Assembly: GCA_964016885.1 (NCBI GenBank)
Contig: OZ024740.1
Coordinates: forward strand, 249,736,001-249,800,000
From: Eledone cirrhosa
Lineage: Eukaryota
Direction of reading: 5' to 3'
Length of the DNA stretch: 64,000 nucleotides
In this document: positions 23,878 to 52,690 of the stretch, piece after piece
Layout of the letters: each line of letters opens with the position of its first letter
Position numbering within the stretch: position 1 is the first letter of the stretch
Notes under the pieces: generated by a model
Told to the model about the DNA's origin: nothing
The model's input: the letters and a program-made list of their open reading frames with translations, nothing else
Database searches by the model: none
Translations under genes and position numbers: made by a program

Positions 23878-24722
23878 ATATATGTATACAGACGTACAGT
23901 AGTATGTATATATACATATATATATATATACATACATGCACACATATATATATATGTACGTATGGATTCAACGAACATTTATTATAATGCGCGGTGTGTT
24001 TGTAAACAAACATCCCGAATTAAGCCGTACAGTGTCTAGCAACCATCGTTGCTCATTTGTTCAACACTGACAAAGTATATACTTTCAGACGTTCAATCAC
24101 CTGGCAGGAATGTATACGTTGCTGACGATAGCTAATAAGCTTGAAACTAGTACAGCGTTCCTTTGTCAGTGTTGAACAAATGAGCAACGATGGTTGCTAG
24201 ACACTGTACGGCTTAATTCAGGATGTTTGTTTACAAACACACCGAGCATTATAATAAATGTTCGGTGAATCCATACGTACATATATATATATATATATAT
24301 GCATGTATGTATATATATATACATACTACTGTACGTCTGTATACATATATGTATGTACGTATACATACTTATATTTAAGTAACAGCCGTACTAAGAGTGA
24401 GAAATGAAATTTCGTTTCATTTTTTCCATTTATCGTTTTCGGTACCCCGGCCGATTAACTCACTCGATATGCAAATTAGGCTGCTCAGCCGTTAATATGC
24501 ATAAGGAAAGTATATACTTTCAGACGTTCAACCATCTGGCAGGAAGGTATACGTTGCTGACGATAGCTAATAAGCTTGAAACTAGTACAGCGTTCCTTTG
24601 TCAGTGTTGAACAAATGAGCAACAATGGTTGCTAGACACTGTACGGCTTAATTTTACAACCACACCGAGCATTATAATAAATGTTCGGTGAATCCATACG
24701 TACATATATATATGTGTGCATG

Positions 24723-24772
<50 letters not shown>

Positions 24773-24840
24773 CTACTGTACGTCTGTATACATATATGTA
24801 TGTACATATACATACTTATATTTATATATATATATATATA
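23878..24840 (+). mobile_element. ORF-less retrozyme-like tandem (435-nt period) with inverted 5' segment
   Basis: Identical minimal HHRs at 24116-24158 and 24551-24593: acgttg CTGACGA t-agct-aata-agct-t GAAA ctag TA cagcgt; ~23878-24074 is the reverse complement of ~24161-24350. Confidence 0.85.
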
Positions 24841-27547: not shown

Positions 27548-30500
27548 TATATATATATAAATGCAAGTTTACGATTCTGCGTGTCCGCCTAAAACTAGCA
27601 AACTACCGGACCAAACTCCTCAAAATTACATGTACATATTCACTATACATTCGGACAGGTAACGGTCGAAAAAGTTTTACTTTGCAAAGCAAGAAATTCA
27701 TTTAAATTCAATTTATCTTATTTTCTAATGAATAGCAAAAGAGATCATCCATTTTGTTTTTTTATGTTCTCCAGTTTGTAGATAAGAGAGTAAGGAATGG
27801 GAGAGAGAAAGAAATAGAGTAAGAGATAAGAGAGAAAGAGAGAGAGAGTGGGAGATGGAAGAGATTGTAAGGGGATGAGAGAGAAAGAGAGAGAGTGAGT
27901 GGATGGGAGAGAGAGAGAGAGAGTAAGGGGATGTGAGAGAGAAAGAAAGAGAGTAAGGGATGAGAGAGAGAGAGTGGGAGATGGGAGAGAGAAAGTAAGG
28001 GGATGAGAGAGAAAGACGATGAAAGAGAGAGAGAGAGAAAGTAACCAGCGTTCTTAACTTTTATTTATTTATTATTTTTACACACTTTTTAACTCTCCCG
28101 CTTCCTTAACGTTATTTATCTTTTCTTTATTTTTTGTTCTCTATTCCGTAGAGAGAGGGGGGATGTGAGAGAGAAAAGAGAGAGAGAGAGTAATGGATGG
28201 GAGAGAGAGGGGGAAAGTAGCAAGCGTTCATTAACTTTTATTTATTTATTATTTTTACACACTTTTAACTCTCCAATGTTATTTATATTTTATTTATTTT
28301 TTGTTCGTTATTTTGTAAGGATGAGAGAGAGAAAAAAAGAGAGGAGATGAGAAAGAGAAAGGGAGTGAGGCGGATGGGGAGAAAAAGACAATAAGAAAAG
28401 AGAAAAGATGGGAGAGAGAAAAAAGTAAAGAGGCAGGAGAGAGGGAGGGTGATTGGAGGGATTCTTTACCTAACTTGTGTCTGCGTTTATATATATATAT
28501 TTACACACACATATGTGTGTTATGGGAAAGGAAGCGTTCTTTAGTAGACTATATATGTTACCATCAAAGCTTATTTTCTATATATGTCTAAAGAAATCAC
28601 AGATGCTTTTATAGAAGTTGTATATATGTGTTTTTAACAGACAAAAAAAAACCGGTATTTTTAAAAGATATTATTTGAATATATTATTTTCCGCTATTAT
28701 TTGAATTAACACAGAAAATATTTTTTTGTAATGTTTGTCGTTTTTGTGGATACAATCTGAAATCTCAATATTTTCTACATATGTCTAAAATTAATTACAC
28801 CTAATATACATTCATATAAAGAGATCATTTAAAACAACTTTACTGAGTGAACAATACATTCTATAGTTGTTTCTATTTGGGAAAGAGTGTGGTGTGTAAT
28901 AATTGTTTCTACTTTTGGCACAAGGCTAGCAATTATTCCAGTGCATTACTGGTACTTTATTTTATCGTGTGGTGTGTAATAATTGTTTCTACGTTAGGCA
29001 CAAGGCCAGCAATTACCCAGTGTATTACTGGTACTTTATTTTATCGACCCCGTAAGGATGAAAGGCAAAGTTAACCTCGGCGGGATTTGAACTCAGAATG
29101 GCAAGGGCCATTGTGGTGTGTAATAATATCACTTCAAATGCCTAAAAAACGTTCCAGATCATTATATGGAAGGTCATCTTCAGAGGCTAAGAGAAAGAAA
29201 ACACGGCGATCTGAAGAAAGTGAAGAAGTTCGGCATGCCCGTCTAGCTGCTAACAGAGCCCAAACAGCTTTAGCACGAGCACACCATTTGGATGAAAGGG
29301 AACAAAGGACTGCTGCTACACGAGAACAACAAATTAAAGAACAGCAGCAAATCAGACAAAATGCTAATCAAGCACATCGTTTCTACTGCCCGAGCAGGAG
29401 AACAAGCCACAAGTAAAATGAACTGGCTGATGGGTGCTTTTTCTTATGACCCCCAAAAGGACTACAGCAATAATCCACAAATCAACATTGGGAAAATGAA
29501 CAAATGCTGCCAGTATTGTGGTGCCAAGAAGTGGGCAGCAGAAACACCAAGTCTATGCTGCTCAAAACAATACAAGAACCTCCTGAATTTCTGAAGAATC
29601 TGCTCCTTCAGCATACACCAGAAGCACGACACTTCAATAAATACATCATAAAATATAATTCTGCCTTTCAAATGACATCTTTTGGGGCTGATCGGAACGT
29701 GATTGACTTTAGATTCTGTACAACTTATAAAATTCAGGGACAGCGTTACCACTTAATGGATGGCCTTCTGCCACTTTCACAGGAGCCTCACAAATTTGTG
29801 CAGGTTTACTTCATGGGTGGAAATGAAACACAGGCACAACAAAGATGTATCAATGTCCATGGTGGATTGCAGTTCTACATAGTCATAAAGTTACAAGAAA
29901 TGCTTCACCAACATCACATGTATGTCAATGTATTTAAATATGCACTGGAGCATATGAACAAAACCAGAGATCATAAAATCATCATTAGGGCAGACAAACG
30001 CCCAGATTCAGAACTTGAACGCAGATTCAATGCACCTGTCACTGATGAAGTTGCAATCATAATGGTTGATGAACAGCATGAATGGTGTGACATTGTTTTG
30101 CAAAAACAAAGTGGACATTTGGAGCGAATTTGTGAAACTCATAGAGCCTATGATTCACTCCAATATCCGCTCATCTTTTGGAATGGTCAAGATGGATATC
30201 ATTTTCAGCTACGGCAGATCAGCCCAGGAATGGGACAAGAAACTGGCTGATCAATCAGCTGCAAAGAATTCTATGCTTATCATTTCATGGTACATGATCA
30301 CTTCAACCAAGTTCTGCGATTCAAAGAAGTAACCAGCCAGTTCATGGTGGACATGTATGCCAAAATTGAAACAGAAAGGAATCAAACTAAGTTGAGGGCA
30401 GATAACTCCATCCACCTTAGAGATGCCATCAATTCTGATGTTGACCCAAGAAATATTGGCCAGCCAGTCATACTACCATCAAGCTTCACGGGAGGACCAC

Positions 30501-33500
30501 GTTACATGCATGAACGTACGCAAGATGCAATGGCCTATGTCAGAAAATTTGGTCGGCCAGATCTCTTCATTACATTTACATGCAATTCAAACTGGTCAGA
30601 AATATCAAATGAATTATTTCAAAATCAAAAACCAAAGGATCGACATGACCTCATTGCTTGGGTTTTCCATGAAAAACAAAAAAAAAAATTCATCTGGCTC
30701 CTAAAAGAAGGAAGAATCTTTGGTGAGCTTAGTGCTTGGATGACCACTATTGAGTGGCAGAAGAGAGGTCTTCCTCACTCTCACACACTAATCTGGTGCA
30801 AGGAGAAGATAAGACCAGATGATGTTGATAAGATCATTTCAGCAGAGTTGCCTGATAAAGGTGGTGATCCAGAGCTCTTTGAAACCATCAAGTCCAAACT
30901 CATTCATGGTCCCTGCATGAAAGATAAAAAATGCAGCATACATTATCCTAGAGCTTTTATTCGGGAAACTCGGGCTGACAATAATGGATACCCCCTTTAT
31001 CGTAGGCGTAGACCAGAACATGGAGGCAATACTGCAAGCCTAACAGTTCGAGGAGAGGAGCTGCTGACCATAAACAATCAGTGGGTCGTCCCACACAACA
31101 AATTGTTGTGTAAACTTTTAAAAGCTCATATCAATGTTGAGTATTGCAGCTCCGTCAAGGCAATCCTATATGTCACAAAATATATCAACAAGGGCAGTGA
31201 CATGGCTATCTTTATTACTGACAAAGAACTCAATAATGGTGGGCTGGATGAGGTCAAACGGTATCAAACAGGTCGATACATCTCCAGCAATGAGGCTATC
31301 TGGCGAATCTTTGGATTTGATATCCACCAACGCCACCCAACAGTGGTCAACCTCGCAGTCCATCTGGAAGATGGACAGAGAGTGTACTTCACTGAGATCA
31401 CTGCTCATCAGTTGACACAAGCATCACATGACACTACACTAACTGCTTTCTTTAAACTCTGCCAGAATGATGAATTTGCTCGATCCCTCCTAAATACTGA
31501 AGTCCCAACATATTACACCTGGACCAATTGCAAGACCTGGAATCGAAGAAAGCAGGGTCATTTAGTGGAAGGTCATGAAGTCAAGTTAAGTGATGCTATT
31601 GGGCAAGTTTACAATGTCCATTCCAACAACAGAGAATGTTTTTATTTACGGCTACTTCTATGCAGAAGTAGCTGTTCGAGGACCAACCTCATTTGAGGAT
31701 TTTAGGTGCTTCAGAGGAAGGGAGTGCGCAACATACCAAGAAGCATGTAAATAACATGGACTCCTGCATGACAATGGACACTGGAAGAAGTGCCTCGAAG
31801 AAGCAGCAATCACTCAAGCAGCCAGTCAAATAAGACAATTATTTGCTATTATGCTCACAGCATATGGAATTGATGAAGCTCATTTACTCTGGCAGGAGTA
31901 CAAAAACAATATGTCGGACGACTATCTACACCTCGCCCAAAGACATCATGGCAATATGTATATGGAATATACCCCCAGGATTTACAATCAAGCTCTCTGT
32001 GACCTGTCCCATCGAGTTCAGGCAATGAATAGCACATTAGCTAACTGCGGGATGCCAGAGCCAGATGAAGAAATGGAGGTAGCACAAGACATTTTTCAGG
32101 AGACAAACTATGATATTCATGCATTGCGTAAGTTTGTGGATGAAAATGAACCTCGATTGATGGATGACCAGAAATATACCTACCACAACATCATCGAAAA
32201 CATTCAAAATGACAGGGGAGGACTTTTCTTCATCGATGCTCCTGCTGGCACAGGCAAGACATTCCTCATAAACCTCCTGCTTGCAAAAGTTCGCCAAAAG
32301 CAACATATTGCCCTTGCTGTGGCTTCAAGTGGCATTGCAGCAACACTTCTGGATGGAGGAAGAACTGCATACTCCATGTTTAAGCTGCCCATAGATCTCA
32401 CACGGCATGAACAATCTTTTTGCAACATCAAGAAGAACTCACCCAAGGGCAAGCTTCTGCAAACATGCAAGATGATAATTTGGGATGAAGCTACTATGAG
32501 CCATAAAGGAGCAATTGAAGCTTTGGACCAGACGATAAGGGATCTGAGAGAAAATAGTTGCATAATGGGTGGAGTGACAATGGTTCTTGCTGGTGATTTC
32601 AGACAAACTCTGCCTGTAATTCTTCGAGGGACTCGAGCTGATCAGGTCAATACCTGTCTGAAAACATCCTATCTCTGGCCCCACTTTCATGAGCCTTACA
32701 ACCAACATGCGAGTGCACTTAACTGGTGACGAAGGTGTCAGTGAGTTTGCCATCCAACTACTTAAATTGGGAAATGGACTTCTTGAAAAGGACTCCAATG
32801 ACCATATTCAGTTGTCATTTGGCCATATCATTGACACAGAACAAGAACTGATTGCCAGAGTGTTTCCAAACATTCAGACCAGGCAATGCGATCCGAAATG
32901 GCTCTGTGAACGAGCAATCTTAGCACCTAAAAATGTTGCTGTGAAAGAAATCAACAGAAGGCTGCTGGAGATATTACCGGGAGAGAAAATATGCTACAAA
33001 TCAGTTGACACAATCACTTCTCAAGACCAGGTTGTAAACTATCCAACTGAATTTTTGAACAGTCTTGAACAAGTGGGAATTCCTCCACACAACCTGATAC
33101 TGAAGCTTGGAGCATCGGTTATGCTACTCCTCCAAAACTTTGTAATGGCACAAGACTCATCATCAAAAATATGATGTCCAATGTTCTAGAAGTTGCAATC
33201 ATGTCAGGAAAATTTGCTGGTGACAATTGTTTCATTCCCAGAACACCTCTGAAGCCAACTGATTTGCCATTTGAATTTCAAAGACTTCAATTTCCGATCA
33301 GGCTCAGTTTTGCCATGACCATTAATAAATCTCAAGGGCAATCATTGAAAGTCGTTGGGTTGAATCTGGCAGATCCTGTCTTTTCACATGGTCAACTCTA
33401 TGTTGGCACAACAAGGGTTGGGAACCCTGATTGTCTCTTCATTGAGGCACCACAGGGCAAAACCAAGAAGGTTGTTTATCCAGAGGCTTTGGAATGAGCA

Positions 33501-34876: not shown

Positions 34877-34884
<8 letters not shown>

Positions 34885-36205
34885 CGTAAAATAAGAAAAT
34901 TATAAAATTAACTTACTTACTAAAAAATCACTTCCAACTAATTAGTTTCTGGAATGGAGTAAATATATTTTCCGAAGAAACATATTGAAAATCATTCCGT
35001 CATCAGGAAAGTCTTTTTCCGTGTAAGTCTCCAGGCATAGCGAGGACTCTGGAAACTTATTAAAAAAATAATTCAGTGGAAAGGAAATAGCGAAGCGTGG
35101 ACTGGATTCCTAGCCATTGAGAAAATCACTGCCTCTACGTCTGTGGCAAATTCAAAAAGAATCAATCACGTGACATCGAGGTCAATCAGTGGAAAGCGAG
35201 TGGTTAATAAGACAGCGGCCAGCCTACTACCATAGTAGCAGTCATGGCCAAATATTGCTCGACAAATGAATTGGAGATAATTATCAAAAAGAATTTGCCA
35301 CAGACGTAGAGGCAGTGATTTTCTCAATGGCTAGGAATCCAGTCCACGCTTCGCTATTTCCTTTCCACTGAATTATTTTTTTAATAAGTTTCCAGAGTCC
35401 TCGCTATGCCTGGAGAATTACACGGAAAAAGACTTTCCTGATGACGGAATGATTTTCAATATATTTCTTCGGAAAATATATTTACTCCATTCCAGAAACT
35501 AATTAGTTGGAAGTGATTTTTTAGTAAGTAAGTTAATTTTATAATTTTCTTATTTTACGTCTCTCATATTATTGTTCTGCAACCCCATGCATTGAACCAC
35601 AATGTTAATAAGACAAAACCTATATATTTGCTAGCATTGATATGCATCTGTGTGTATATAAATGTTACTAGATATAAATTCCTTATAATTATCTCCAATT
35701 CATTTGTCGAGCAATATTTGGCCATGACTGCTACTATAGTAGTAGGCTGGCCGCTGTCTTATTAACCACTCGCTTTCCACTGATTGACCTCGATGTCACG
35801 TGATTGATTCTTTTTGAATTTGCCACAGACGTAGAGGCAGTGATTTTCTCAATGGCTAGGAATCCAGTCCACGCTTCGCTATTTCCTTTCCACTGAATTA
35901 TTTTTTTAATAAGTTTCCAGAGTCCTCGCTATGCCTGGAGACTTACACGGAAAAAGACTTTCCTGATGACGGAATGATTTTCAATATGTTTCTTCGGAAA
36001 ATATATTTACTCCATTCCAGAAACTAATTAGTTGGAAGTGATTCTTTAGTAAGTAAGTTAATTTTATAATTTTCTTATTTTACGTCTCTCATATTATTGT
36101 TCTGCAACCCCATGCATTGAACCACAATGTTAATAAGACAAAACCTATATATTTGCTAGCATTGATATGCATCTGTGTGTATATAAATGTTACTAGATAT
36201 AAATT

Positions 36206-36208
<3 letters not shown>
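34877..36208 (+). mobile_element. ORF-less retrozyme-like element (family B): inverted copy + tandem 525-nt units, three HHRs
   Basis: HHRs 34930-35012 (-), 35432-35514 (+), 35957-36039 (+): actttc CTGATGA c-ggaatg..cUUCGg..cattcc-a GAAA ctaattag TT ggaagt; (TA)n on both sides. Confidence 0.9.
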
Positions 36209-36846: not shown

Positions 36847-36938
36847 GCATATCTGATGACCTTTCGATTACTGAGTCAGGTTCTATCTATAATAGGTCTT
36901 GCCTCGAGCTGATCGATAGCGAAACATATGTAATATGT
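36847..36938 (+). ncRNA. Hammerhead ribozyme (family C)
   Basis: gcatat CTGATGA ..tcgat..atcga.. GAAA catatg TA atatgt; decayed relative at ~37605-37695. Confidence 0.82.
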
Positions 36939-36952
36939 TATTAAATATGTTA

Positions 36953-37795: not shown

Positions 37796-37831
<36 letters not shown>

Positions 37832-38322
37832 ATACTTTGGGAGGGTCATGTTGCCAATAAGAAACACACGCACCAGTTGCTTTCACTTCAATTTAATTTA
37901 ATATATATTTATAAATTTACAAATTTATAAATTTCTGGTTGGTTGGTTGGTTCCACAACCAGATAGTTGTTTATATATATATAGTCATAGTTCTTTCGTC
38001 ACACACTCTGTGACCTCTTCAGTGACTGGGGATTTCTTTCTTCGTTTCTGTGCTTTTCCTTTCTTCTATCCTACGCCATTTTGTTTGTGTGTGGGTTGCG
38101 TGCTCAGTTTGCGCATGCGCCACATCCGGGTGTCTGTGTGTGTTTGTGTTCATTTTTCTATTTTTCTATTTATATTTGTTTGTTTATTTATTTATTTTTG
38201 TTGGTTGGTTGTTTGTTCTATGTGTGTGTGTGTTTTCATTTTGTCTTGTGTGTGTTTTCATTTTGTGTGTGTTTTCAATTGTAAGTTGTTTATATATGTG
38301 TGTGTGTGTTTTCATTTTGTCC

Positions 38323-39621
38323 TTAATTGTAAGTTGTGATGTTGCTGTTCCACTCATATTTTCTATTTAATTTTGGTTTTAATTCTTTTATGCTTACTGC
38401 CTCTGTAATTTGCCTAAACATTGCGTCTTTCTTGTGTGTGGATTCTATTTTTATTTCTATGCTCTCTAATTTACCCCTGTGTTCTATCTTAGCATGTTGG
38501 TAGAGCACAGATGATTCTTTACTATCTTGGAGGTCTCGCCAGTGTTCATTTATTCGTTCCCCTATACTACGAGCTGTCTCACCTATGTACACTATATTTT
38601 TGTTTCTACATTGTCCCTCAGTACATCTTATGCTATATACTACATTTCTAGTTTTACAGTTAATATGGGGGCTTATTTTACAGGTTATACATTTCTTATC
38701 TATACATGAGGGTCTTTGGAACGGGTATGTCTTGCTAATAAGTGTTTTTACGGAGGTACCAGGTCTTTCTACTATCTTAATATTGAGATTATGTTTCTTT
38801 AGGGCCCTTCTAAATTTGTAGGCTAGTTCACCTCTAGGGGTTGTATTGATGAACATTACACTCTGGTATTTATTGCTATCATACCATGAGTTTATTCTAT
38901 TGGCCTTGTTCTTAGTTCTTTCTATTCTATTCCAAAATTTGCTCCTATACAAGGGGCAGGTCCCATTTATGTCATTATTTACCATTTTTTCCCATTTGGT
39001 TCTGGCTCCTTTATACACTCTGATTCTATCTCTCTGATTGTAGCCAGAGAACTGCATACGGTGGATGAAGTGTTGTATGTGTCTCTCTAGTTCTTCGGGG
39101 TTGCACATGCGGGACACATTTCTCATCACCCGTATCAAATCCGCAATCAGTATGTTGATTTTGGTATGGTCCGAAATGGCCGAGTTTCGGTGGATCAGAT
39201 GTTTGGAAGTCATGGGTTTGGCATAATGGGAATGGAGGATTTGTTTTTGGTTGTTAATAGTATCTAACCAGAGCTCTGTGTCTAGTACAGGTAATCGATG
39301 GTTGGGGTGTCTACTTGGGTAGTCTATAGTAACTCTAATGCTCTGGTGGATGGAGTTTGCTATTTGCTGGATGCTTTCCATTGTGTTTTTCTCAGGTTCC
39401 TGACTGTTCTTTAGTGGGGGTGTCTTAACTACGATGTTTATATCATCTACGTAGCGGGAGTACATTATCAGGGTTAATCTGTCTTCTAATTGTTCTTTAA
39501 GTTTTTGTTTAAGTCTACTGTCCCACCATACCATGAACAAGTTAGCTATGTCGCCTGCAATGCTAACACCAATGGCTGCTCCTTCCTCTTGGGCATATGT
39601 TTTACCATTAAATTTGAACAT
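38323..39621 (-). CDS. PLE partial RT + zinc finger + GIY-YIG (left arm)
   Basis: YAQEEGAAIG, RYVDD, LPVLD, CIDKKCITC, NVVYSIRC..YIGETAR..RINEH. Confidence 0.92.
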   Translation of the reverse strand: MFKFNGKTYAQEEGAAIGVSIAGDIANLFMVWWDSRLKQKLKEQLEDRLTLIMYSRYVDDINIVVKTPPLKNSQEPEKNTMESIQQIANSIHQSIRVTIDYPSRHPNHRLPVLDTELWLDTINNQKQILHSHYAKPMTSKHLIHRNSAISDHTKINILIADLIRVMRNVSRMCNPEELERHIQHFIHRMQFSGYNQRDRIRVYKGARTKWEKMVNNDINGTCPLYRSKFWNRIERTKNKANRINSWYDSNKYQSVMFINTTPRGELAYKFRRALKKHNLNIKIVERPGTSVKTLISKTYPFQRPSCIDKKCITCKISPHINCKTRNVVYSIRCTEGQCRNKNIVYIGETARSIGERINEHWRDLQDSKESSVLYQHAKIEHRGKLESIEIKIESTHKKDAMFRQITEAVSIKELKPKLNRKYEWNSNITTYN

Positions 39622-39697
39622 ATGTTCCTTAAGGGTTAATTATGTTATAAAAATTAATTATAAAAATTAATTATAAAAATTAACCCTTAAGGAACAT

Positions 39698-40996
39698 ATG
39701 TTCAAATTTAATGGTAAAACATATGCCCAAGAGGAAGGAGCAGCCATTGGTGTTAGCATTGCAGGCGACATAGCTAACTTGTTCATGGTATGGTGGGACA
39801 GTAGACTTAAACAAAAACTTAAAGAACAATTAGAAGACAGATTAACCCTGATAATGTACTCCCGCTACGTAGATGATATAAACATCGTAGTTAAGACACC
39901 CCCACTAAAGAACAGTCAGGAACCTGAGAAAAACACAATGGAAAGCATCCAGCAAATAGCAAACTCCATCCACCAGAGCATTAGAGTTACTATAGACTAC
40001 CCAAGTAGACACCCCAACCATCGATTACCTGTACTAGACACAGAGCTCTGGTTAGATACTATTAACAACCAAAAACAAATCCTCCATTCCCATTATGCCA
40101 AACCCATGACTTCCAAACATCTGATCCACCGAAACTCGGCCATTTCGGACCATACCAAAATCAACATACTGATTGCGGATTTGATACGGGTGATGAGAAA
40201 TGTGTCCCGCATGTGCAACCCCGAAGAACTAGAGAGACACATACAACACTTCATCCACCGTATGCAGTTCTCTGGCTACAATCAGAGAGATAGAATCAGA
40301 GTGTATAAAGGAGCCAGAACCAAATGGGAAAAAATGGTAAATAATGACATAAATGGGACCTGCCCCTTGTATAGGAGCAAATTTTGGAATAGAATAGAAA
40401 GAACTAAGAACAAGGCCAATAGAATAAACTCATGGTATGATAGCAATAAATACCAGAGTGTAATGTTCATCAATACAACCCCTAGAGGTGAACTAGCCTA
40501 CAAATTTAGAAGGGCCCTAAAGAAACATAATCTCAATATTAAGATAGTAGAAAGACCTGGTACCTCCGTAAAAACACTTATTAGCAAGACATACCCGTTC
40601 CAAAGACCCTCATGTATAGATAAGAAATGTATAACCTGTAAAATAAGCCCCCATATTAACTGTAAAACTAGAAATGTAGTATATAGCATAAGATGTACTG
40701 AGGGACAATGTAGAAACAAAAATATAGTGTACATAGGTGAGACAGCTCGTAGTATAGGGGAACGAATAAATGAACACTGGCGAGACCTCCAAGATAGTAA
40801 AGAATCATCTGTGCTCTACCAACATGCTAAGATAGAACACAGGGGTAAATTAGAGAGCATAGAAATAAAAATAGAATCCACACACAAGAAAGACGCAATG
40901 TTTAGGCAAATTACAGAGGCAGTAAGCATAAAAGAATTAAAACCAAAATTAAATAGAAAATATGAGTGGAACAGCAACATCACAACTTACAATTAA
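39698..40996 (+). CDS. PLE partial RT + zinc finger + GIY-YIG (right arm, identical protein)
   Basis: 432 aa identical to the left arm in the ORF track. Confidence 0.92.
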   Translation: MFKFNGKTYAQEEGAAIGVSIAGDIANLFMVWWDSRLKQKLKEQLEDRLTLIMYSRYVDDINIVVKTPPLKNSQEPEKNTMESIQQIANSIHQSIRVTIDYPSRHPNHRLPVLDTELWLDTINNQKQILHSHYAKPMTSKHLIHRNSAISDHTKINILIADLIRVMRNVSRMCNPEELERHIQHFIHRMQFSGYNQRDRIRVYKGARTKWEKMVNNDINGTCPLYRSKFWNRIERTKNKANRINSWYDSNKYQSVMFINTTPRGELAYKFRRALKKHNLNIKIVERPGTSVKTLISKTYPFQRPSCIDKKCITCKISPHINCKTRNVVYSIRCTEGQCRNKNIVYIGETARSIGERINEHWRDLQDSKESSVLYQHAKIEHRGKLESIEIKIESTHKKDAMFRQITEAVSIKELKPKLNRKYEWNSNITTYN

Positions 40997-41550
40997 GGAC
41001 AAAATGAAAACACACACACACATATATAAACAACTTACAATTGAAAACACACACAAAATGAAAACACACACAAGACAAAATGAAAACACACACACACATA
41101 GAACAAACAACCAACCAACAATAAATAAATAAATAAACAAACAAATATAAATAGAAAAATAGAAAAATGAACACAAACACACACAGACACCCGGATGTGG
41201 CGCATGCGCAAACTGAGCACGCAACCCACACACAAACAAAATGGCGTAGGATAGAAGAAAGGAAAAGCACAGAAACGAAGAAAGAAATCCCCAGTCACTG
41301 AAGAGGTCACAGAGTGTGTGACGAAAGAACTATGACTATATATATATAAACAACTATCTGGTTGTGGAACCAACCAACCAACCAGAAATTTATAAATTTG
41401 TAAATTTATAAATATATATTAAATTAAATTGAAGTGAAAGCAACTGGTGCGTGTGTTTCTTATTGGCAACATGACCCTCCCAAAGTATAACAATATCGGT
41501 TTCAACACACGATTTCAGATAAAGAATCTTGCTAAACAAATTCAGAAACG

Positions 41551-42649: not shown

Positions 42650-43700
42650 ATTTGCAGAACAACTGGAAATTATCAGTTAACAATTATCCATACAATGGGT
42701 GCTTTATCCCAACCATATATCTTCAAGAAATCTTATTCAGATACAAAACTAAAACATAATAAACACTCACTCACCCATTGAATATGAAAATAAAAAAAAT
42801 AAAAACACAAGAAAATTATATAAGTACAAACAATAAAAACTACGAAAATAACAAGAGTGGCTGAAGAGAGAATAAACTCTAAAACAAACAACCACAGTAA
42901 TAATCTAATAAACACAAAAATCAAAAGTAGACCTAAATACAACGATAAATCTAAACCCGTAGTAATAAAATTCCTAACGAATTTAAAGATAACCAGAATG
43001 AACCTAAAACAAATTATACACCACTATGAACTTGTAAATCAAATCGCAGAAATTCCACTACGTGGTTCAACTCTCCTTTCAGTAAGAACTTAGCCTCCAA
43101 TATACCAAAATTATTATTTAATATCCTAGCGAAAAACTTCCCTCCAGCCTACCACTATCACTCAATATTTAATAAGAATACTATAAAAATATTGTACTCT
43201 ACTTCATCTAACGTAGCTAACTATTTACTATCCAGTAATAATAGGAAAATAGAAAAATATAATAATCCTTCAATTATTACTACCCAAAACTTTCAAATTC
43301 CATTATTTATACAGAATTCAGACTTAACGATACAATATCTAACAATAATAAAAAAAAATAAAACTGTAGAAACCCAGATGCCTGTCCTCTTATGTACACC
43401 AATAGTTCAACATTGTTAGCTAAATATATATGGAACTTTAAAGAGGCCAACATTGAATACTTGATTAATTGGAAGATACTGAAAGTAGCCCATTCATACC
43501 AGGCCAGAAGAAAAAGATGAAACTTGTCTTAAGGAATGTTATATTTTAAAATAAAGTACCAGTAATGTACTGGGTAATTGCTGGCCTTGTGCCTAAAGTA
43601 GAAACAGTTATATTTTAAAATCAAAACAAGTAATCCTTAACAGAAAATCTAAAATTCTCTCCACATGCCCACACAAATGTTCTCAATCCTTCTATTATAG
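42650..43700 (+). pseudogene. Heavily decayed Naiad-type PLE fragment
   Basis: KNFPPAYHYHSIFNKNTIKILYST; YIW..K..NIEY.INWKILKVAHSY. Confidence 0.7.
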
Positions 43701-44080: not shown

Positions 44081-44951
44081 GAGTCGCCAGTGTCCGCGCA
44101 TCGCCTGGAGACTCGGCTGAGAATGACCTCCCTGATGACGCAATGAAATTCTCAACGGTTCATTACGTAACTGTCTTTATCCCATTGCAGAAACTAATTA
44201 GTTGGAGTGAAAATTTAAGTAAGTAAGTTAATTTTTTAAAAAAATTTTTTCAAAAAATTTTCTTATTTTACGTCTTTTATATTATTGTTCTGCATTCTCC
44301 TGCATCGAACCACCTAGGTACTATGACATAACCTGTGTATTTGCTGGCATTGGCGTACATCTGTGCGCTTATGTTAGTAGATATATTAAATTATCTATAT
44401 TTATCTCCAAATCACTGATTTGTCGAGCAAACCTGCCAAAACCACTTCTAAAAATTTTTTTTGGGGGTGTTAGTAGGCGCTTGTCATCTTACCACCCCAT
44501 TCCTACTGACTAGCCTCTGTGTCACGTGATTGATTCTTTAGAATCGGCCATATGATCAGTGGCAGTGAGAATTTTCAGTAGCTGGAATCCAGTCCTCGAT
44601 AGCTGTTCCATTTACCGAATTATTATTATTTTTATATGAGTCGCCAGTGTCCGCGCATCGCCTGGAGACTCGGCTGAGAATGACCTCCCTGATGACGCAA
44701 TGAAATTCTCAACGGTTCATTACGTAACTGTCTTTATCCCATTGCAGAAACTAATTAGTTGGAGTGAAAATTTAAGTAAGTAAGTTAATTTTTTTTTAAA
44801 ATTTTTAAAAAAAAATTTTCTTATTTTACGTCTTTTATATTATTGTTCTGCATTCTCCTGCATCGAACCACCTAGGTACTATGACATAACCTGTGTATTT
44901 GCTGGCATTGGCGTACATCTGTGCGCTTATGTTAGTAGATATATTAAATTA

Positions 44952-44956
<5 letters not shown>
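44081..44956 (+). mobile_element. ORF-less retrozyme-like tandem (family B relative, 557-nt period), two HHRs
   Basis: HHRs 44128-44207 and 44685-44764: ctcc CTGATGA c-gcaatg..cattgc-a GAAA ctaattag TT ggag; (TA)n on both sides. Confidence 0.9.
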
Positions 44957-45010
<54 letters not shown>

Positions 45011-45011
<1 letters not shown>

Positions 45012-45349
45012 CAATATTAAATAAATGGAAACTATATTTATAAAACCATATTTATTTCATTATATATATTTCAGGGATATCATATTAACAATATGCTATG
45101 CCTTCCTCAGACAAAATACAATATAAACAGTTTTATAGATAAATAGATTCGACATACCGTAACAACATCGACTTGTATTTGAAAAGGTTCGATGTTGTTA
45201 CGGTATGTCGAATCTATTTATCTATAAAACTGTTTATATTGTATTTTGTCTGAGGAAGGCATAGCATATTGTTAATATGATATCCCTGAAATATATATAA
45301 TGAAATAAATATGGTTTTATAAATATAGTTTCCATTTATTTAATATTGT
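45011..45349. repeat. Fold-back palindrome (~160-bp arms) carrying two HHRs
   Basis: 45242-45307 (+): tattttgt CTGAGGA agg..cct GAAA tatata TA atgaaata; mirror at 45053-45118 (-). Confidence 0.85.
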
Positions 45350-45434
45350 AAATATACTCCAAATACTTGTCGAGTGCTTTTATATCAGTTATAAATATTT
45401 ACTAGTTGTAACCCAACAACTTAAATATAACTTT

Positions 45435-45485
<51 letters not shown>

Positions 45486-45674
45486 TATATCGGGTCGTCA
45501 GCGACTAAACTGGCAACCCCACCATGTTCACTTGGTGAAGAGGGGGATTTTGGACACCCTGCAGGACAAAAAACAAAACCTGACAAAGGGTGGAAGAACT
45601 CATAAGAATCAACAACCATCCAAAAGTGTGTAAATATGTATATACATATATACATATGTATATATATATATATC

Positions 45675-48600
45675 CGGACTGCCTGGCGCTATAAAAGACA
45701 GATTCTATGAGACACTGATGCTCACTACCTCCCAAATAACCGACAGTGACTATATAGTTATTGCTGGCGACCTAAATGGCCACGTTGGTCAACATTGTGA
45801 CGGCTATGACGGAATCCACGGAGGCTATGGGTTTGGTACTAGAAATGAGGAAGGCTCCAGAATCCTGGAATTCTGTGATGCAAATAACCTAACTATCTGT
45901 AACACTAACTTCAAAAAACGAGACAATCACTTGATCACCTACAGATCGGGGGAACATACCAGCCAGGTAGATTATATCCTTACCAGAGGACGTGACAGAG
46001 TGTCTGTTGTAAACACTAAATCCATGAAGAATGCACCCCATGAAGAATGCACCTCCCAACATAGCCTTATAGTTAGTGACCTCATAGTCAGGACGAGGCG
46101 TACTAGACAACAGAAGAGGACTATCCTGAGGAGAAAACTATGGAAGTTAAAGGACCCCACAGCCAGAAATAAATTTCAAAGCATGTTACTTGATGCTTTC
46201 AACAGTAAGGAAGAGCAATTAGAGTCAGATGATATAGAGGAACAGTGGGAATTCCTGAAAGCAAACCTGCTGACGGCGGCAGACAAAGTCTGTGGCTGGA
46301 GCAGGCCTGTAGGTAGGAGGAGAGTAACATGGTGGTGGAACAGTAAGGTGGAGGAGTCAATTAAGGCCAAAAAGCAGGCTTGGAAAGTATGGCGGGATGG
46401 AGGAAGTAGAGTAGACTATCAAGTGGCCAGGAGGGAAGCTAGGAGACAAGTGTACTTCGCAAGAAGAGAAGCAGAGGAAAGAAAGTTCAAGCATGTTCTA
46501 CAACGTGAGGACCAAAAACGTGAGGTGTTCAGGATTGCTAGGCAATGTGTCAAGGAAAACCGTGATATTGTCGGGGAGAAGTGTGTCTTGAATGATGATG
46601 GTGTACTTGCCATCACTGACGCTGATAAGAAGGTAGCTTGGAAGTGTCACTACGAAAGGCTTCTAAATGAGGAGAATAAATGGGAGAAAGACAGTCTCCC
46701 CCACATTGACCCAATAGAGGGACCGGCAGTGTTAGTCGAAGGTAGTATAATAAGTAAGGCAATCAAAGATATGAAGATGGGTAAGGCGGCTGGGCCTTCG
46801 GAAATAGTTGCTGAGATGCTGAAGGCCTCTGGAACGGTGGGACACACCATGGTCACCCGGATAGTAAACCAAGTCATACAGAATGGGGTTGTTCCGAAGG
46901 ACTGGCGTAACAGCATCATCATTAACTGTTACAAGGGTAAAGGAGACGCCCTAGATAGGAGTAACTATAGAGGCATTAAATTAATCGACCAGGTCATGAA
47001 GGTCACGGAAAAAGTTATAGCGCAACTAATCAGAGAGAGAATTGATCTAGATGAAATGCAGTTCGGTTTTGTGTCAGGCAAAAGTACCACAGACGCTCTT
47101 TTCATTGTACGAAAACTACAGGAGAAGTACCTAGCTAAAAGTAAACCCCTATACTTAGCTTTTGTCGACTTGGAGAAAGCCTTCGACAGAGTCCCCCGTT
47201 CCATTATCTGGTCGGCTCTTAGAAAACTAGGTGTTGACGAATGGCTTGTGAGAGCTATACAAGCCATGTATAAAGAAACAGTCAGCAAGGTTAGAATTAA
47301 CAACGAATATAGTGAAGAGTTTAGTGTAAAAGTTGGTGTACATCAGGGCTCTGTTCTTAGCCCCCTACTATTTATTATTGCCCTTCAGGCTATAACAGTG
47401 TAGTTCAAGACCGGCTGCCCATGGGAACTCCTATACGCAGATGATCTAACGCTCATAGCTGAATCAATGGCCGAGCTAGAGAAGAAATTCCAAACATGGA
47501 AGCATGGCCTAGAATCAAAAGGGCTTAAAATTAACCTGGCTAAGACTAAAGTTCTAGTTTGTAGGAAAGAAAATAAGGCGATGGTCCCTTCCGGGAAATG
47601 GCCATGCTCAGTGTGTAGGAAAGGCGTAGGTAGAAACTCCATTTTATGTCCCAAATGCAAAGTATGGGTGCATAAAAGATGTAGTGGGATCACAGGTAAG
47701 CTAACTAAGAACATAGATTTTACATGTGGCCGGTGCTCTGGTGCAATATGTAGCAGCAAGTGCCCACAAAATACTAGCTCTTTCAATTGCGCAGAGGGTT
47801 CTATAGAAATAGTGGACAGCTTCCGTTACCTGGGTGACAAAATCAGCAGTGGGGAGGGTGCTCTGAAAGTACAGTAGCTAGAGTCAGAACTGGATGGAAA
47901 AAGTTCAGAGAGCTTATACCACTATTAGTCACTAAAGGGTTCTCCCTAAAAATGAAAGGCAGGTTGTATGATGCCTGCATACGAACAGCAATGTTGCAAG
48001 GCAGTGAGACCTGGGCATTGTGTGCAGAGGATATACGCAGACTAGAGAGGAACGAAGCTTGCATGCTCCGCCGGATGTGTAATAGTAACATACGCGAACG
48101 GCAAAGCATAAGCGAACTAAGGAAAAAATTAGAAATAAGAGGGATCAGATGTTGTTTACTCGAGAGAAGGCTACGTTGGTATGGTCACGTGATGCGCATG
48201 AAAGACGACAGCTGTATAACAAAGTGCAGGGCAATAAAGATAGACGGTAGCTACGGAGTAGGCAGACCCAGAAAAACCTGGGACGAGCTGATAAATTCCG
48301 ACCTCACACACTTATACCTCTCCAAGACAATGTCACTGGACCGAGACCTTTGGCGGTACTCAGTAATAGAGAAGACCCGCCTTACCTAAATACAAAGTAA
48401 ACCTACTACAGTCAGTAGGCATCTCTAACAAAATACGCCCCCGTCACACCACCACCCCATCCACACCGCCCCTTTCAATGTAAAGTTATGTTGGTACCAC
48501 AACATCCAGGCCGAAACAAATGAGGTCGTGTAGGTGTCACGACAAAAAAAACAGACAGTCCACGCTGTAATGTGGCCGTGTAGACAACACGGTAAAAACC

Positions 48601-49325: not shown

Positions 49326-49971
49326 TAGGGTATAATTTAAAAAGTGAGAATGGGGCTCTGTGGTTACCAATAAATATTATTTAGAAAACACAGGGTCAAT
49401 TTCCGCTCACTGGCTGTCTTTTTGGATCACTAATGTTTCGAACGCATTAAAGAGAGTACATTTCACCACAGTGCGTTAATAGTTAAAATGGATAGCTATT
49501 CGGGAAGAAACACAACGGACAATAACAAAGAGACCACTAATAAAAAAACACAAGGAACAAAGAAAGATATACCGATAGAGAAAGGGAAAAAGACAAAGGC
49601 ACATGAATGTGTGGTAGTAACCGAGGGGAAAAAAGGGAAAGAGTTAATACTAAGTTGCCGAACGTAAGTTCTGAAAGCATATTAACAACAAGCGGGACTG
49701 AGAGAAACAAACAGAAAGCAACGAAGGAAAAATGGAAGTGAGCAGAGGAGTGGAAAAGTAGTAAAAGAACAGAGAGAGAGAGGGGAGAACGGAGATAGAA
49801 AGAAGCAGAGGTCACAGCAGTAAATTAATATGAATTAAAAAAAGGAGAATGGGGAAGTGTGGATATTATTTAGAAAACCTGAGAGAAAACACAAGCACAA
49901 GGACAATTCCCAATCATCGGCTGTTATATATATATATGACAGCCGAAGAGTGGGAATTATATATATATATA

Positions 49972-52690
49972 TCGATATGTAACACAAACTTCAAAAAACC
50001 CGACAACCATCTGATTACCTATAGACCAGGGGAGCATTCTAGTCAGATAGATTTTATCCTCATCAGAGGATGTGACAGATGGACCATCGTGAACACAAAA
50101 GCCTTCCCTATTGAGGAGTGTATCTCCCAACATAACTTAGTTGTCAGCGACATCATTGTCAGAACTAGACGAACTTGGAAACAGAAGGCAACCTGGAGAA
50201 GAAAGATCTGGAAGCTGAAAGACCCCTCAGCCAGTAACAGATTTAAAGATATTTTACTCAATGCCTATGACAGTAAAGAAGAACAGATACAGACATTCAA
50301 TGTAGAAGAGCACTGGGAGTTCCTAAAAAAATAAGCGACGGACGAGATCTGTGGTTGGAGCAAGACCACAGGCAGGAAGAGAGTGACTTGGTGGTGAACA
50401 ATAAGGTAGATGAGGCAGTTAAGGCCAAGAGACAGGCATGGAAAGAATGGAAGAATGGGGGAAGCAGGGTATATTACATAGAGACCAGGAGGGAAGCTAG
50501 GCGACAAGATACTTAACTAGAAGGGAAGCGGAGGATAGAAAATTCAAGCATGTTTTGCAAAGTGAGGACCAGAAACTGGGGTGTTCAAGATTGCAAGGCA
50601 GTGTGTCAGAGAGAATTGTGATGTCATTGGAGATAAGTGTATCCGGAATGATAAAGGGGAGCTTGCTCTCACAAGTGCTGAGAAGAAAGATGCATGGAAG
50701 AGCCATTATGAAAGATTACTAAATGAGGAGAATGCATGGGAAAAAGAGACCCTACCCCAACTGGACCCTATAGAGGGGCCAGCAATACAAGTCAGCAGCA
50801 GCGTAGTAAGTCAATCAAAGATATGAAGACGGGGAAGGCAACTGGTCCAGCGGGTACAGCTGCCGAGATGCTGAAGGCATCTGGGTCGGTAGGTCACACT
50901 ATAACCACACGTATCTTTAACCAGGTAATACTAGAAGGTGTCATACCAAAGGATTGGTGCAGCAGCACCATTGTCAACTGCTACAAGGGTAACGGTGATG
51001 CACTAGATAGAGGAAACTATAGAGGTATAAAGCTGATGAAAGTAACAGAAAGAGTTATAGCACAGTTGATTAGGGACCAGGTGAAATTAGATGAGATGCA
51101 ATTTCGGTTTGTACTTCCTTGTGAGGAAGTTACAGGAAAAGTACCTATCTAAAAATAAGCCGATCTACCTGGCATTTATCGATCTGGAGAAAGCCTTTGA
51201 CAGAGTCCCCCATGCTATAATCTGGTGGGCTCTTAGAAAACTAGGAGTAGATCAATGGCTTGTGACAGCTGTACAAGCCATGTATAGGGGAGCAGTCAGC
51301 AAAGTTAGGATTAGCAATGACTATAGCGAGGAATTTAGCATACAGGTCGGTGTCCACCAGGGCTCTGTTCTTAGCCCTCTCCTGTTCATCATAGTTCTGC
51401 AGGCAATAACGGAGGAGTTTAAGACCGGATGCCCATGGGAACTCCTGTATGCAGATGACCTCGCACTTATAGCTGAAACTATGGTAGAACTAGAGAACAA
51501 ATTCCAAACATGGAAGCAGGGACTAGAAAGAAAGGGTCTCAAAGTCAACCTGACAGAGACTAAGGTCCTTGTAAGTAGACGAGAAAACAGAACCCAGATC
51601 TATTCAGGGAAATGGCCTTGCTCAGTATGTAGGAAAGGTGTAGGTAGAAACTCCATCCTCTGCCCCAAATGCAAACAATGGGTACAAAAGATATGTAGTG
51701 GGATCTCAGGAAGCTTAACTAAGAATGTAGGCTTCACATGTAGCAGCTGCGCTGGGACAGCAAGCAGCAAACAGCCACAGGAAACAAGCACCACCAAACT
51801 CTGGGAGGGCTCTGTAGAAACAGTAGATAGCTTCTGCTACCTAGGTGACCAAATTAGCCACGGAGGTGGGTGTTCGGAAAGTACAATAACTAGGGTAAGA
51901 ATGGGATGGAAGAGGTTCAGGGAGCTATTGCCACTACTAGCTGCAAAAGGCTTTCCCTTCAAAATGAAAGGCAGACTGTATGATGCGTGTATACGAACAG
52001 CAATGTTACATGGTAGTGAGACCTGGGCACTGTCTGTAGAAGACTTGCGTAGATTAGAAAGAAACAAAGCTTGCATGCTCCGATGGATGTGTAATAGTAA
52101 TATACGCAAATGGCAAAGCATAAACGAATTGAGAGAGAGACTGAGCATAAGAGGAATCAAATGATGTATGCAGGAGAGGAGGTTGCGTTGGTATGGACAT
52201 GTGATGTGTATGAAGGAGGACAGCTGCTTAAAAAAGGTGCAGAGCACTAGAAGTTGATGGAAGCCGCGGAGATGAGGTGATAAAAGCCGGCCTTACCCAA
52301 TTGCACCTCTCAAAGGTGATGACACAGAACTGTGACCTCTGGCGTCACGCAGTAATACAGAAGGCCCGACCCCCCACGGGTACAAGCCGAAGCTGAAGCA
52401 TATAGACAACATGCCCCCACCCCCTCCCACTGCAAAGTGGTCGTGGAGGTGCCATGGCAAAAAAGCACCCAGCCCACACTGTAAAGTGGACGTGTAGGCA
52501 CCACGGAAAAAAAGCACCCCGCACTCACTGTAAATGAGGTTGGTGTTAGGAAGGGCATCCAGCTGTAGAAATCAAGCCAGAATCAGTTCCCGTATGAGCA
52601 AGACATGGTCAGCCAACTGGACACTGCCCATAACAGGACAACCCGACTAACCCATGCTAGCGTGGAAGAATGGACGTAAAAAGGTGACGA
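49972..52690 (+). mobile_element. RTE LINE (APE-RT-PHD), decayed
   Basis: ORFs 49849-50334, 50581-50826, 50736-51152, 51091-52164; same family as 45675-48778. Confidence 0.92.

What the first reader, a model, noticed from the sequence alone, without database searches (positions are those of the whole stretch)
44081..44956. Sister element (557-nt monomer) shows compensatory changes against the 35-kb element
Seen: stem II base ggaatg/cattcc becomes gcaatg/cattgc; stem I actttc/ggaagt becomes ctcc/ggag; an upstream hairpin aagtttccag/ctggagactt becomes gagtcgccag/ctggagactc; the distal stem II hairpin changes sequence but stays paired (acggtt/aactgt). The core, the CTAATTAG palindrome, a downstream gtaagtaag (splice-donor-like) and gtcacgtgattg (E-box-like) are retained. 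Inference: selection on RNA structure and possibly on an internal promoter.
Basis: partly seen in the sequence, partly recalled or inferred. Interest (0 to 1): 0.75.

Follow-up and report, generated by a model that had tools for sequence, protein, structure and literature searches.

The report
Pseudoknot-braced hammerhead retrozyme, Penelope-inserted
This is one of thousands of copies of a small non-coding jumping repeat whose hammerhead-ribozyme-shaped RNA motif keeps its base pairs across subfamilies; it likely cuts itself with the help of a predicted pseudoknot and is likely pasted into TA repeats by a Penelope-type retrotransposon enzyme, a variant of a known kind of element.

Summary
44081-44956 is 1.6 copies of a 557-nt unit with a type I hammerhead motif, set in (TA)n, about 70% like the 35-kb element. 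The motif pattern matches 10,848 times in this genome (reversed control 0). Across subfamilies stem II and its distal hairpin covary (two pairs at E<0.05 against a tree-based null). Stem I and the upstream hairpin stay paired but are not significant. No ORF. Promoter and splice donor are untested: both motifs are conserved but each is also one strand of a hairpin. Cleavage, circles and the partner enzyme are not shown. Verdict: a non-LTR retrozyme / non-autonomous Penelope-like element with a variant ribozyme. This scan already described what appears to be the same family on other DNA (e1-9585305).

The parts
44081..44637 (+). Unit 1, 557-nt non-coding monomer; 5' junction falls in TA microhomology
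44638..44961 (+). Unit 2, partial, ends at fixed end 2 in (TA)n
   Evidence: 1 difference in 249 unmasked sites from unit 1
44081..44114 (+). Upstream hairpin (GAGTCGCCAG / CTGGAGACTC)
   Evidence: z -2.3; 89% paired in 25 representatives; no significant pair with tree null
44119..44123 (+). GAGAA, 5' strand of predicted pseudoknot (pairs with 44149-44153)
44128..44131 (+). Stem I 5' strand (pairs with 44204-44207)
44132..44138 (+). Hammerhead core CUGAUGA
   Evidence: sequence
44139..44189 (+). Extended stem II: C44139.A44189 mismatch at base, 6-bp stem 44140-44145/44183-44188, internal loop with UUCUC 44149-44153, distal hairpin 44155-44160/44169-44174
44190..44203 (+). GAAA core, short stem III in palindrome ACUAAUUAGU, GUU triplet; predicted cut between 44203 and 44204
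   Evidence: sequence; position inferred from hammerhead consensus
44219..44271 (+). Hairpin GTAAGTAAG (44219-44227) with CTTATTTTAC (44262-44271); the donor-like motif is its 5' strand
44278..44284 (+). Fixed end 1 (unit position about 202), inferred first reverse-transcription start site
44398..44404 (+). Fixed end 2 (unit position about 320-324), inferred second start site; used at 44956-44961 in this copy
44519..44535 (+). TGTCACGTGATTGATTC, E-box-like conserved stretch; also 5' strand of a predicted hairpin
44676..44764 (+). Second copy of the ribozyme motif (core at 44689; predicted cut 44760/44761)
34879..36208 (.). Sister subfamily (525-nt unit): inverted arm 34879-35296 ending at end 1, tandem arm 35291-36208 ending at end 2, in (TA)n; carries the A-U form of the middle pseudoknot pair

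Best explanation
The stretch is a non-coding tandem repeat with a type I hammerhead motif and fixed 3' ends in TA repeats, and it likely spreads as a non-autonomous passenger (non-LTR retrozyme) of a Penelope-like retrotransposon, with selection acting on its folded RNA. Shown: thousands of dispersed copies, no ORF, covarying stem II, two fixed 3' ends, variable 5' ends, inverted second arms. Inferred: transcripts fold so that GAGAA upstream of stem I pairs with UUCUC in the stem II internal loop and docks the stems; the ribozyme would cut after GUU, probably slowly or as a dimer through the ACUAAUUAGU palindrome, given the C.A base of stem II; unit-length RNA would be circularised; a Penelope endonuclease would nick (TA)n and its reverse transcriptase would start at one of two fixed sites after the GUAAGUAAG hairpin, run round the template for more than one unit, and copy the second arm from the other site.
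For: Copy number 10,848 vs 0. Stem II pair 2 takes all four Watson-Crick forms and pairs in 19 of 19 clusters; pair 5 is U-A or G-C in 19 of 19. Tree-null E 0.033 and 0.017 for stem II pair 2 and a distal pair. On a tree of upstream flank these states fall on nested clades. Pseudoknot middle pair: G-C 21, A-U 4 of 25; genome-wide G-C pattern 8,905, A-U 990 raw (partly double counted), A.C 58 scattered over subfamilies. A distant family keeps GAGAA/UUCUC, the core and a non-canonical stem II base in 22 of 23 rows; a third has AAGAA/UUCUU with the first pair A-U in 23 of 24 scored of 30 loci. Ends: 51 end 1, 43 end 2, 2 other; 13 of 13 two-armed insertions have one of each. This matches the Penelope tail, inverted copy and (TA)n target (PMC8557442) and two internal RT start sites (PMC11167929). 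Arm starts are spread around the unit and arms run through the cut site, up to about 1.9 kb, as expected of a circular or uncut multimeric template. One composite insertion joins end 2 without TA to a truncated Penelope-like ORF (L070).
Against: No cleavage, circle or transcript is shown. Rfam finds no hammerhead here. The minimum-energy fold of the ribozyme region alone is not the active fold and is no better than shuffles (z 0.6 and -0.6). Pseudoknot, stem I and upstream hairpin pairs are not in the top 25 of the tree-null test, and an unmodelled pair scores as high as stem II pair 5 (both E about 1). The A-U pseudoknot form is confined to GGAAUG-type subfamilies in the 100 rows seen, so it may be a single event; A-rich and U-rich strands pair easily by chance. 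No autonomous element with this unit as its terminal repeat turned up. Copies starting at the cut site are not clearly enriched (6 of 37 TA junctions by hand count). Units within an insertion are only modestly closer (0.96-1.2%) than between insertions (1.7%). Eight of nine Xenopus retrozymes tested did not cleave (bioRxiv 10.64898/2026.07.22.740005).
Confidence: 0.8

Rival explanations
1. The units are solo or tandem pseudo-LTRs left by 5'-truncated insertions of an autonomous Penelope-like element, so the promoter-like and donor-like motifs are that element's internal promoter and 5' UTR intron.
For: Penelope pLTRs hold a promoter, an intron and a hammerhead (PMC8557442; PMC4209133). The E-box stretch and GTAAGT are highly conserved while their pairing partners drift.
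Against: Units close on themselves head to tail in arrays of up to about 3.4 units with no ORF. None of 132 partly overlapping family loci had a Penelope-like ORF running into the unit from upstream on the same strand. No conserved acceptor seen.
Confidence: 0.1
2. The element is Penelope-mobilised, but the hammerhead-like fold is kept as a protein-binding or template-recognition structure and does not need to cut; the template is an uncut multimeric transcript.
For: C.A at the stem II base and GUU triplet; most arms run through an intact cut site; Anolis Penelope ribozyme mutants still insert in vitro and the ribozyme cuts only with protein (PMC11167929).
Against: The catalytic letters are what three distant families share, with variation mainly at the free position 7; a mismatch at the stem II base is tolerated in an active axolotl hammerhead (PMC7229834).
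Confidence: 0.25
3. The pairing changes are a by-product of shared descent or DNA-level palindrome repair in a neutral repeat.
For: Few subfamilies, poorly resolved tree (14 of 28 branches open); most helices are not significant with the tree null.
Against: Four Watson-Crick states at one pair with no mismatch among clusters; G.U wobbles in the transcribed sense and UUCG loops in many distal hairpins; a pseudoknot-type pairing is hard to explain by hairpin repair.
Confidence: 0.04

Closest known systems
Metazoan non-LTR retrozymes (Cervera and de la Pena 2020, PMC7229834; Li, Clavereau and Pollet 2026, bioRxiv 10.64898/2026.07.22.740005)
   Same: Non-coding tandem units with one type I hammerhead each, low GC (35-38%), highly self-paired, thousands of copies, proposed Penelope dependence.
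   Different: Longer unit (521-571 nt vs about 170-400 in the 2020 paper; within the 51-972 range of the 2026 preprint); extended stem II with internal loop and predicted pseudoknot instead of the usual loop contacts; two fixed ends and inverted arms, which the parts I read do not describe for retrozymes; circles not shown here.
Penelope-like element pseudo-LTRs and their hammerheads (PMC4209133, PMC8557442, PMC11167929)
   Same: (TA)n target, partial tandems, inverted 5'-truncated copy, tail on one end only, extra nucleotide after A9, palindromic stem III, long stem II.
   Different: No ORF; tail about 120 nt rather than 30-40; an extra A between C11.1 and G12 (or read as a C.A pair) not mentioned in the passages read.
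Pseudoknotted hammerheads and stem II mismatch variants (Perreault et al. 2011, PMC3088659; axolotl HHR_Amex2)
   Same: Watson-Crick helix joining stems I and II (about 40% of their hammerheads); mismatch at the stem II base tolerated (U.U).
   Different: Here the helix joins the 5' tail of stem I to an internal loop of a long stem II, and the mismatch is C.A (U.G or A.G in a distant family).
Type-SGC permuted hammerheads (Eckert et al. 2023, PMC10085705)
   Same: Hammerhead core with a helix bracing stems I and II.
   Different: This motif is in the ordinary type I (CGS) order.

Membership tests
Type I hammerhead ribozyme | Core CUGANGA, GAAA and NUH in C-G-S order with three helices | tested here: met
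   Sequence
Type I hammerhead ribozyme | Canonical G10.1-C11.1 pair directly on the core | tested here: not met
   C.A in 18 of 19 clusters precedes the G-C pair; mismatch variants are known and active
Type I hammerhead ribozyme | [quoted passage not shown] | tested here: inconclusive
   Predicted 5-bp pseudoknot, 98% paired with two compensatory states, not significant with tree null
Type I hammerhead ribozyme | Site-specific self-cleavage | not testable with these tools
   Indirect test by copy starts was weak
Type I hammerhead ribozyme | Match to an Rfam hammerhead model | tested here: not met
Non-LTR retrozyme | Tandem non-coding units each with a type I hammerhead, at least two in a row | tested here: met
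   44132 and 44689; 43 distinct unit-length spacings; no ORF of 100 aa or more in the element
Non-LTR retrozyme | Dispersed multi-copy, low GC, self-paired unit | tested here: met
Non-LTR retrozyme | Expressed as unit-length linear and circular RNA | not testable with these tools
   No RNA holder listed
Penelope-like element, non-autonomous | Fixed 3' ends with a tail on one end, inverted 5'-truncated copy, (TA)n target | tested here: met
Penelope-like element, non-autonomous | Sequence link to an autonomous partner | tested here: inconclusive
   None found; one composite insertion
Penelope-like element, autonomous | RT plus GIY-YIG ORF | tested here: not met
Penelope-like pseudo-LTR | Internal promoter and spliceosomal intron | not testable with these tools
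   Motif conservation only; no GT..AG joint in two contig sets of unknown kind
Type-SGC hammerhead | Non-circular block order S-G-C | tested here: not met
   Order is C-G-S (sequence; for the definition)

The most novel reading that the evidence does not exclude
An old lineage of animal retrozymes (at least three families in this genome) uses a distinct hammerhead design, braked by a non-canonical pair at the base of stem II and braced by a pseudoknot into a stem II internal loop, so that its RNA circle survives long enough for a Penelope reverse transcriptase to start at two fixed hairpin-marked sites and copy both arms; the circle carries its own E-box promoter, and the L070 composite records the partner enzyme switching templates onto it.
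Probability: 0.3. Interest if true: 0.65.

Novelty: new variant of a known kind. Interest (0 to 1): 0.42.

Why it matters
How retrozymes are copied into animal genomes is proposed but not shown; the 2026 preprint argues for Penelope dependence from co-occurrence and trees. Here the insertions themselves carry Penelope end marks, and many subfamilies give natural compensatory variants, so cleavage, pseudoknot and start-site tests can be designed directly. The ribozyme form is missed by Rfam, so standard screens undercount it. Each ingredient has precedent, and the scan has met this family before, which caps the surprise.

Tried and rejected
Rfam at gathering and E-value thresholds: nothing relevant. 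RNA runs: no RNA holder listed. Two contig sets of unknown kind showed head-to-tail joints and one non-GT..AG skip, which says nothing on splicing or circles. Autonomous partner: 8 downstream regions of one Penelope-like family carry a different hammerhead (a ninth locus was mis-oriented); no ORF link in the two distant families; no match in the Craig et al. supplement. Metagenome scan gave one chance hit. SGC permutation rejected. Covariation outside the ribozyme: upstream set, no pair under E 4; downstream set was contaminated by TA-run rows and discarded (output partly cut). Start-at-cut-site test: 4 of 121 arm starts within 3 nt, 3 of them artefacts of the reference start, in a sample biased to intact ribozymes; 6 of 37 TA junctions in the first 100 of 278 rows: inconclusive. 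Search for more composites: one hit, an ordinary internal unit. A decayed Penelope-like frame at 43.0-43.7 kb seen by eye was not confirmed by tblastn or Pfam. The G.U state of the pseudoknot pair was not counted. Lunse et al. 2017 on Penelope hammerhead variants did not appear as a held paper and was not read; bioRxiv supplements and most other supplements were not seen and may hold this ribozyme form.

Full report
Observation. The stretch 44081-44956 holds a 557-nt unit and a 324-nt partial repeat between (TA)n runs. It is about 70% identical to the element at 34879-36208, which has a 525-nt unit, a tandem arm and an inverted arm. Of the changes listed, stem II shows one true double change; stem I shows a wobble swap and a pair lost on both strands; the upstream hairpin shows one double change, one wobble swap and one broken pair.

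What it is. The unit carries CUGAUGA, a long stem II, GAAA, a short palindromic stem III and GUU, in type I hammerhead order. Rfam does not detect it. The window lies in a 3.0-Gb genome; earlier scan notes call it cephalopod, which I did not test. A DNA search scored 40 of 1,706 candidates and gave 151 matches, whole units at 95-100%. The core pattern matches 10,848 times against 0 for the reversed control. No ORF of 100 aa lies in the element.

Covariation. Sequences were collected by the core pattern, so core invariance inside this family is built in. Among 19 clusters, stem II pair 2 is C-G 2, U-A 6, G-C 6, A-U 5 and pair 5 is U-A 10, G-C 9, all paired; the position below the stem is C.A in 18. 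For 25 representatives and 34 pairs, 93.6% of cells pair against 87.8% shuffled (0/500) and 29-51% slid; that shuffle ignores relatedness. My tree-aware test (G-test with APC, substitutions re-dealt on the tree, 40 representatives, the 10 loci picked for the A.C mismatch left out) gave E 0.017 for a distal hairpin pair and 0.033 for stem II pair 2; stem II pair 5 and one unmodelled pair had E about 1; stem I, upstream hairpin and pseudoknot pairs were not in the top 25. A tree of upstream flank, poorly resolved, places GUAAGG, GUAAUG and GCAAUG stems on nested clades, so the double changes happened in steps. Four whole units folded as circles score z -4.0 to -7.2 against 25 shuffles each, while the ribozyme region alone does not fold into the active form.

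Pseudoknot. An all-pairs scan pointed to GAGAA upstream of stem I pairing with UUCUC in the stem II internal loop: 98% paired, middle pair G-C 21 and A-U 4 of 25. Genome counts with slightly different patterns: G-C 8,905, A-U 990 raw with some double counting, A.C 58 scattered across subfamilies. The A-U form sits only in GGAAUG-type subfamilies in the rows seen, so it may be one event. Two distant families were found by looser patterns. One (30 loci fetched; 2,701 candidates) keeps GAGAA/UUCUC, the core and GUAAGUA, with C.A 8, U.G 7, A.G 6, U-A 1, A.A 1 at the stem II base. The other, older (611 candidates) has AAGAA/UUCUU, first pair A-U in 23 of 24 scored of 30, middle pair G-C in 15 with several rows out of register. 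I put the pseudoknot at about 0.7.

Insertion anatomy. Terminal units end at one of two sites: 51 just after the GUAAGUAAG/CUUAUUUUAC hairpin, 43 some 85-125 nt further on, 2 elsewhere. All 13 two-armed insertions scored have one end of each kind. The 5' starts of 121 arms are spread round the unit and arms reach about 1.9 kb. This is the partial tandem, inverted copy, one-sided tail and (TA)n bias described for Penelope-like elements (PMC8557442: passages and section 11), and the tail is the distance between two internal RT start sites in the Anolis element (PMC11167929: parts 1-2 of 4). No autonomous partner was found. In one locus, L070, end 2 is joined without TA to a truncated Penelope-like ORF of the family that also lies at 38-41 kb in this window, the other side is joined to an inverted arm of the 24-kb ribozyme family, and (TA)n flanks the whole. 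Template switching by one enzyme would explain it; nested insertion would too. No second case was found.

Promoter and splice motifs. CACGTG is intact in 36 of 44 upstream representatives and the stretch is the best conserved there. It is also the 5' strand of a predicted hairpin (z -3.1), and I saw none in the distant-family stretches printed. GTAAGT is present in 67 of 74 downstream rows and in the first distant family, but pairs with CTTATTTTAC; the third family has a hairpin there without it. In both cases the motif strand is steadier than its partner, which leaves room for a second role. No RNA data could test this.

Cleavage. Not shown. That GUU is a weaker triplet is recalled, not from a call (one search found nothing on it).

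Comparison. Non-LTR retrozymes are tandem type I hammerhead repeats expressed as circles, with Penelope elements proposed as mobilisers (PMC7229834: passages and parts 2-4 of 6; bioRxiv 10.64898/2026.07.22.740005: parts 1-3 of 5). Penelope hammerheads have an extra nucleotide after A9, long stem II, palindromic stem III and many compensatory changes (PMC4209133: parts 1-2 of 4). Pseudoknots brace about 40% of hammerheads and a U.U base of stem II is tolerated (PMC3088659: passages). It is not a permuted type (PMC10085705: outline and passages). Searches showed no paper on this family or this combination; subscription papers and most supplements were not seen.

Verdict. A real, RNA-selected element: a non-LTR retrozyme with Penelope-type ends and a variant hammerhead. 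New variant of a known kind, already noted by this scan elsewhere in the genome. Interest 0.42.

Noticed in passing
window 37800-41550: Head-to-head palindromic insertion of a truncated Penelope-like element: two 438-439 aa frames (weak RVT_1, E 0.0016) with compact hammerhead motifs at 38022 (-) and 41298 (+); same family as the ORF fused to the retrozyme in L070.
   Followed up: partly
window 23900-24830: Another tandem hammerhead-like repeat (CTGACGA...GAAA at 24122 and 24557, 435-nt spacing) with an inverted part; an inverted arm of it forms one side of the L070 composite.
   Followed up: partly
window 36850-36950: Hammerhead-like motif with a very long stem II insert, ending in (TA)n.
   Followed up: no
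window 29000-33500: Broken Helitron: Helitron_like_N (E 8e-47) and PIF1 (E 3e-58) frames.
   Followed up: partly
window 45634-48389 and 49800-52200: LINE-type endonuclease and reverse transcriptase frames with stops (RVT_1 E 9e-21 for the first).
   Followed up: partly
window 45013-45350: About 170-nt perfect inverted repeat beside the element's 3' TA run, with a CTGAGGA motif on each arm.
   Followed up: no
window 43030-43700: Frames that look by eye like a decayed Penelope-like C-terminus just upstream of the element; not confirmed by tblastn or Pfam.
   Followed up: partly
L006, L013, L017, L018, L028 (G000:C28:45.83-45.86 Mb): The same multi-unit insertion with its TA flanks is repeated at least six times: secondary tandem amplification of a whole insertion.
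   Followed up: no
L190-L219 and L230-L259: Two distant retrozyme-like families with the same ribozyme layout; the first also shows inverted arms and TA ends.
   Followed up: partly
L229 (G000:C1:27.458-27.466 Mb): About 140-nt satellite in which some units match a loose hammerhead pattern; no stems checked.
   Followed up: no
L082-L110: Very abundant Penelope-like family (58,293 first-look candidates) with a different hammerhead about 1 kb after the ORF.
   Followed up: partly
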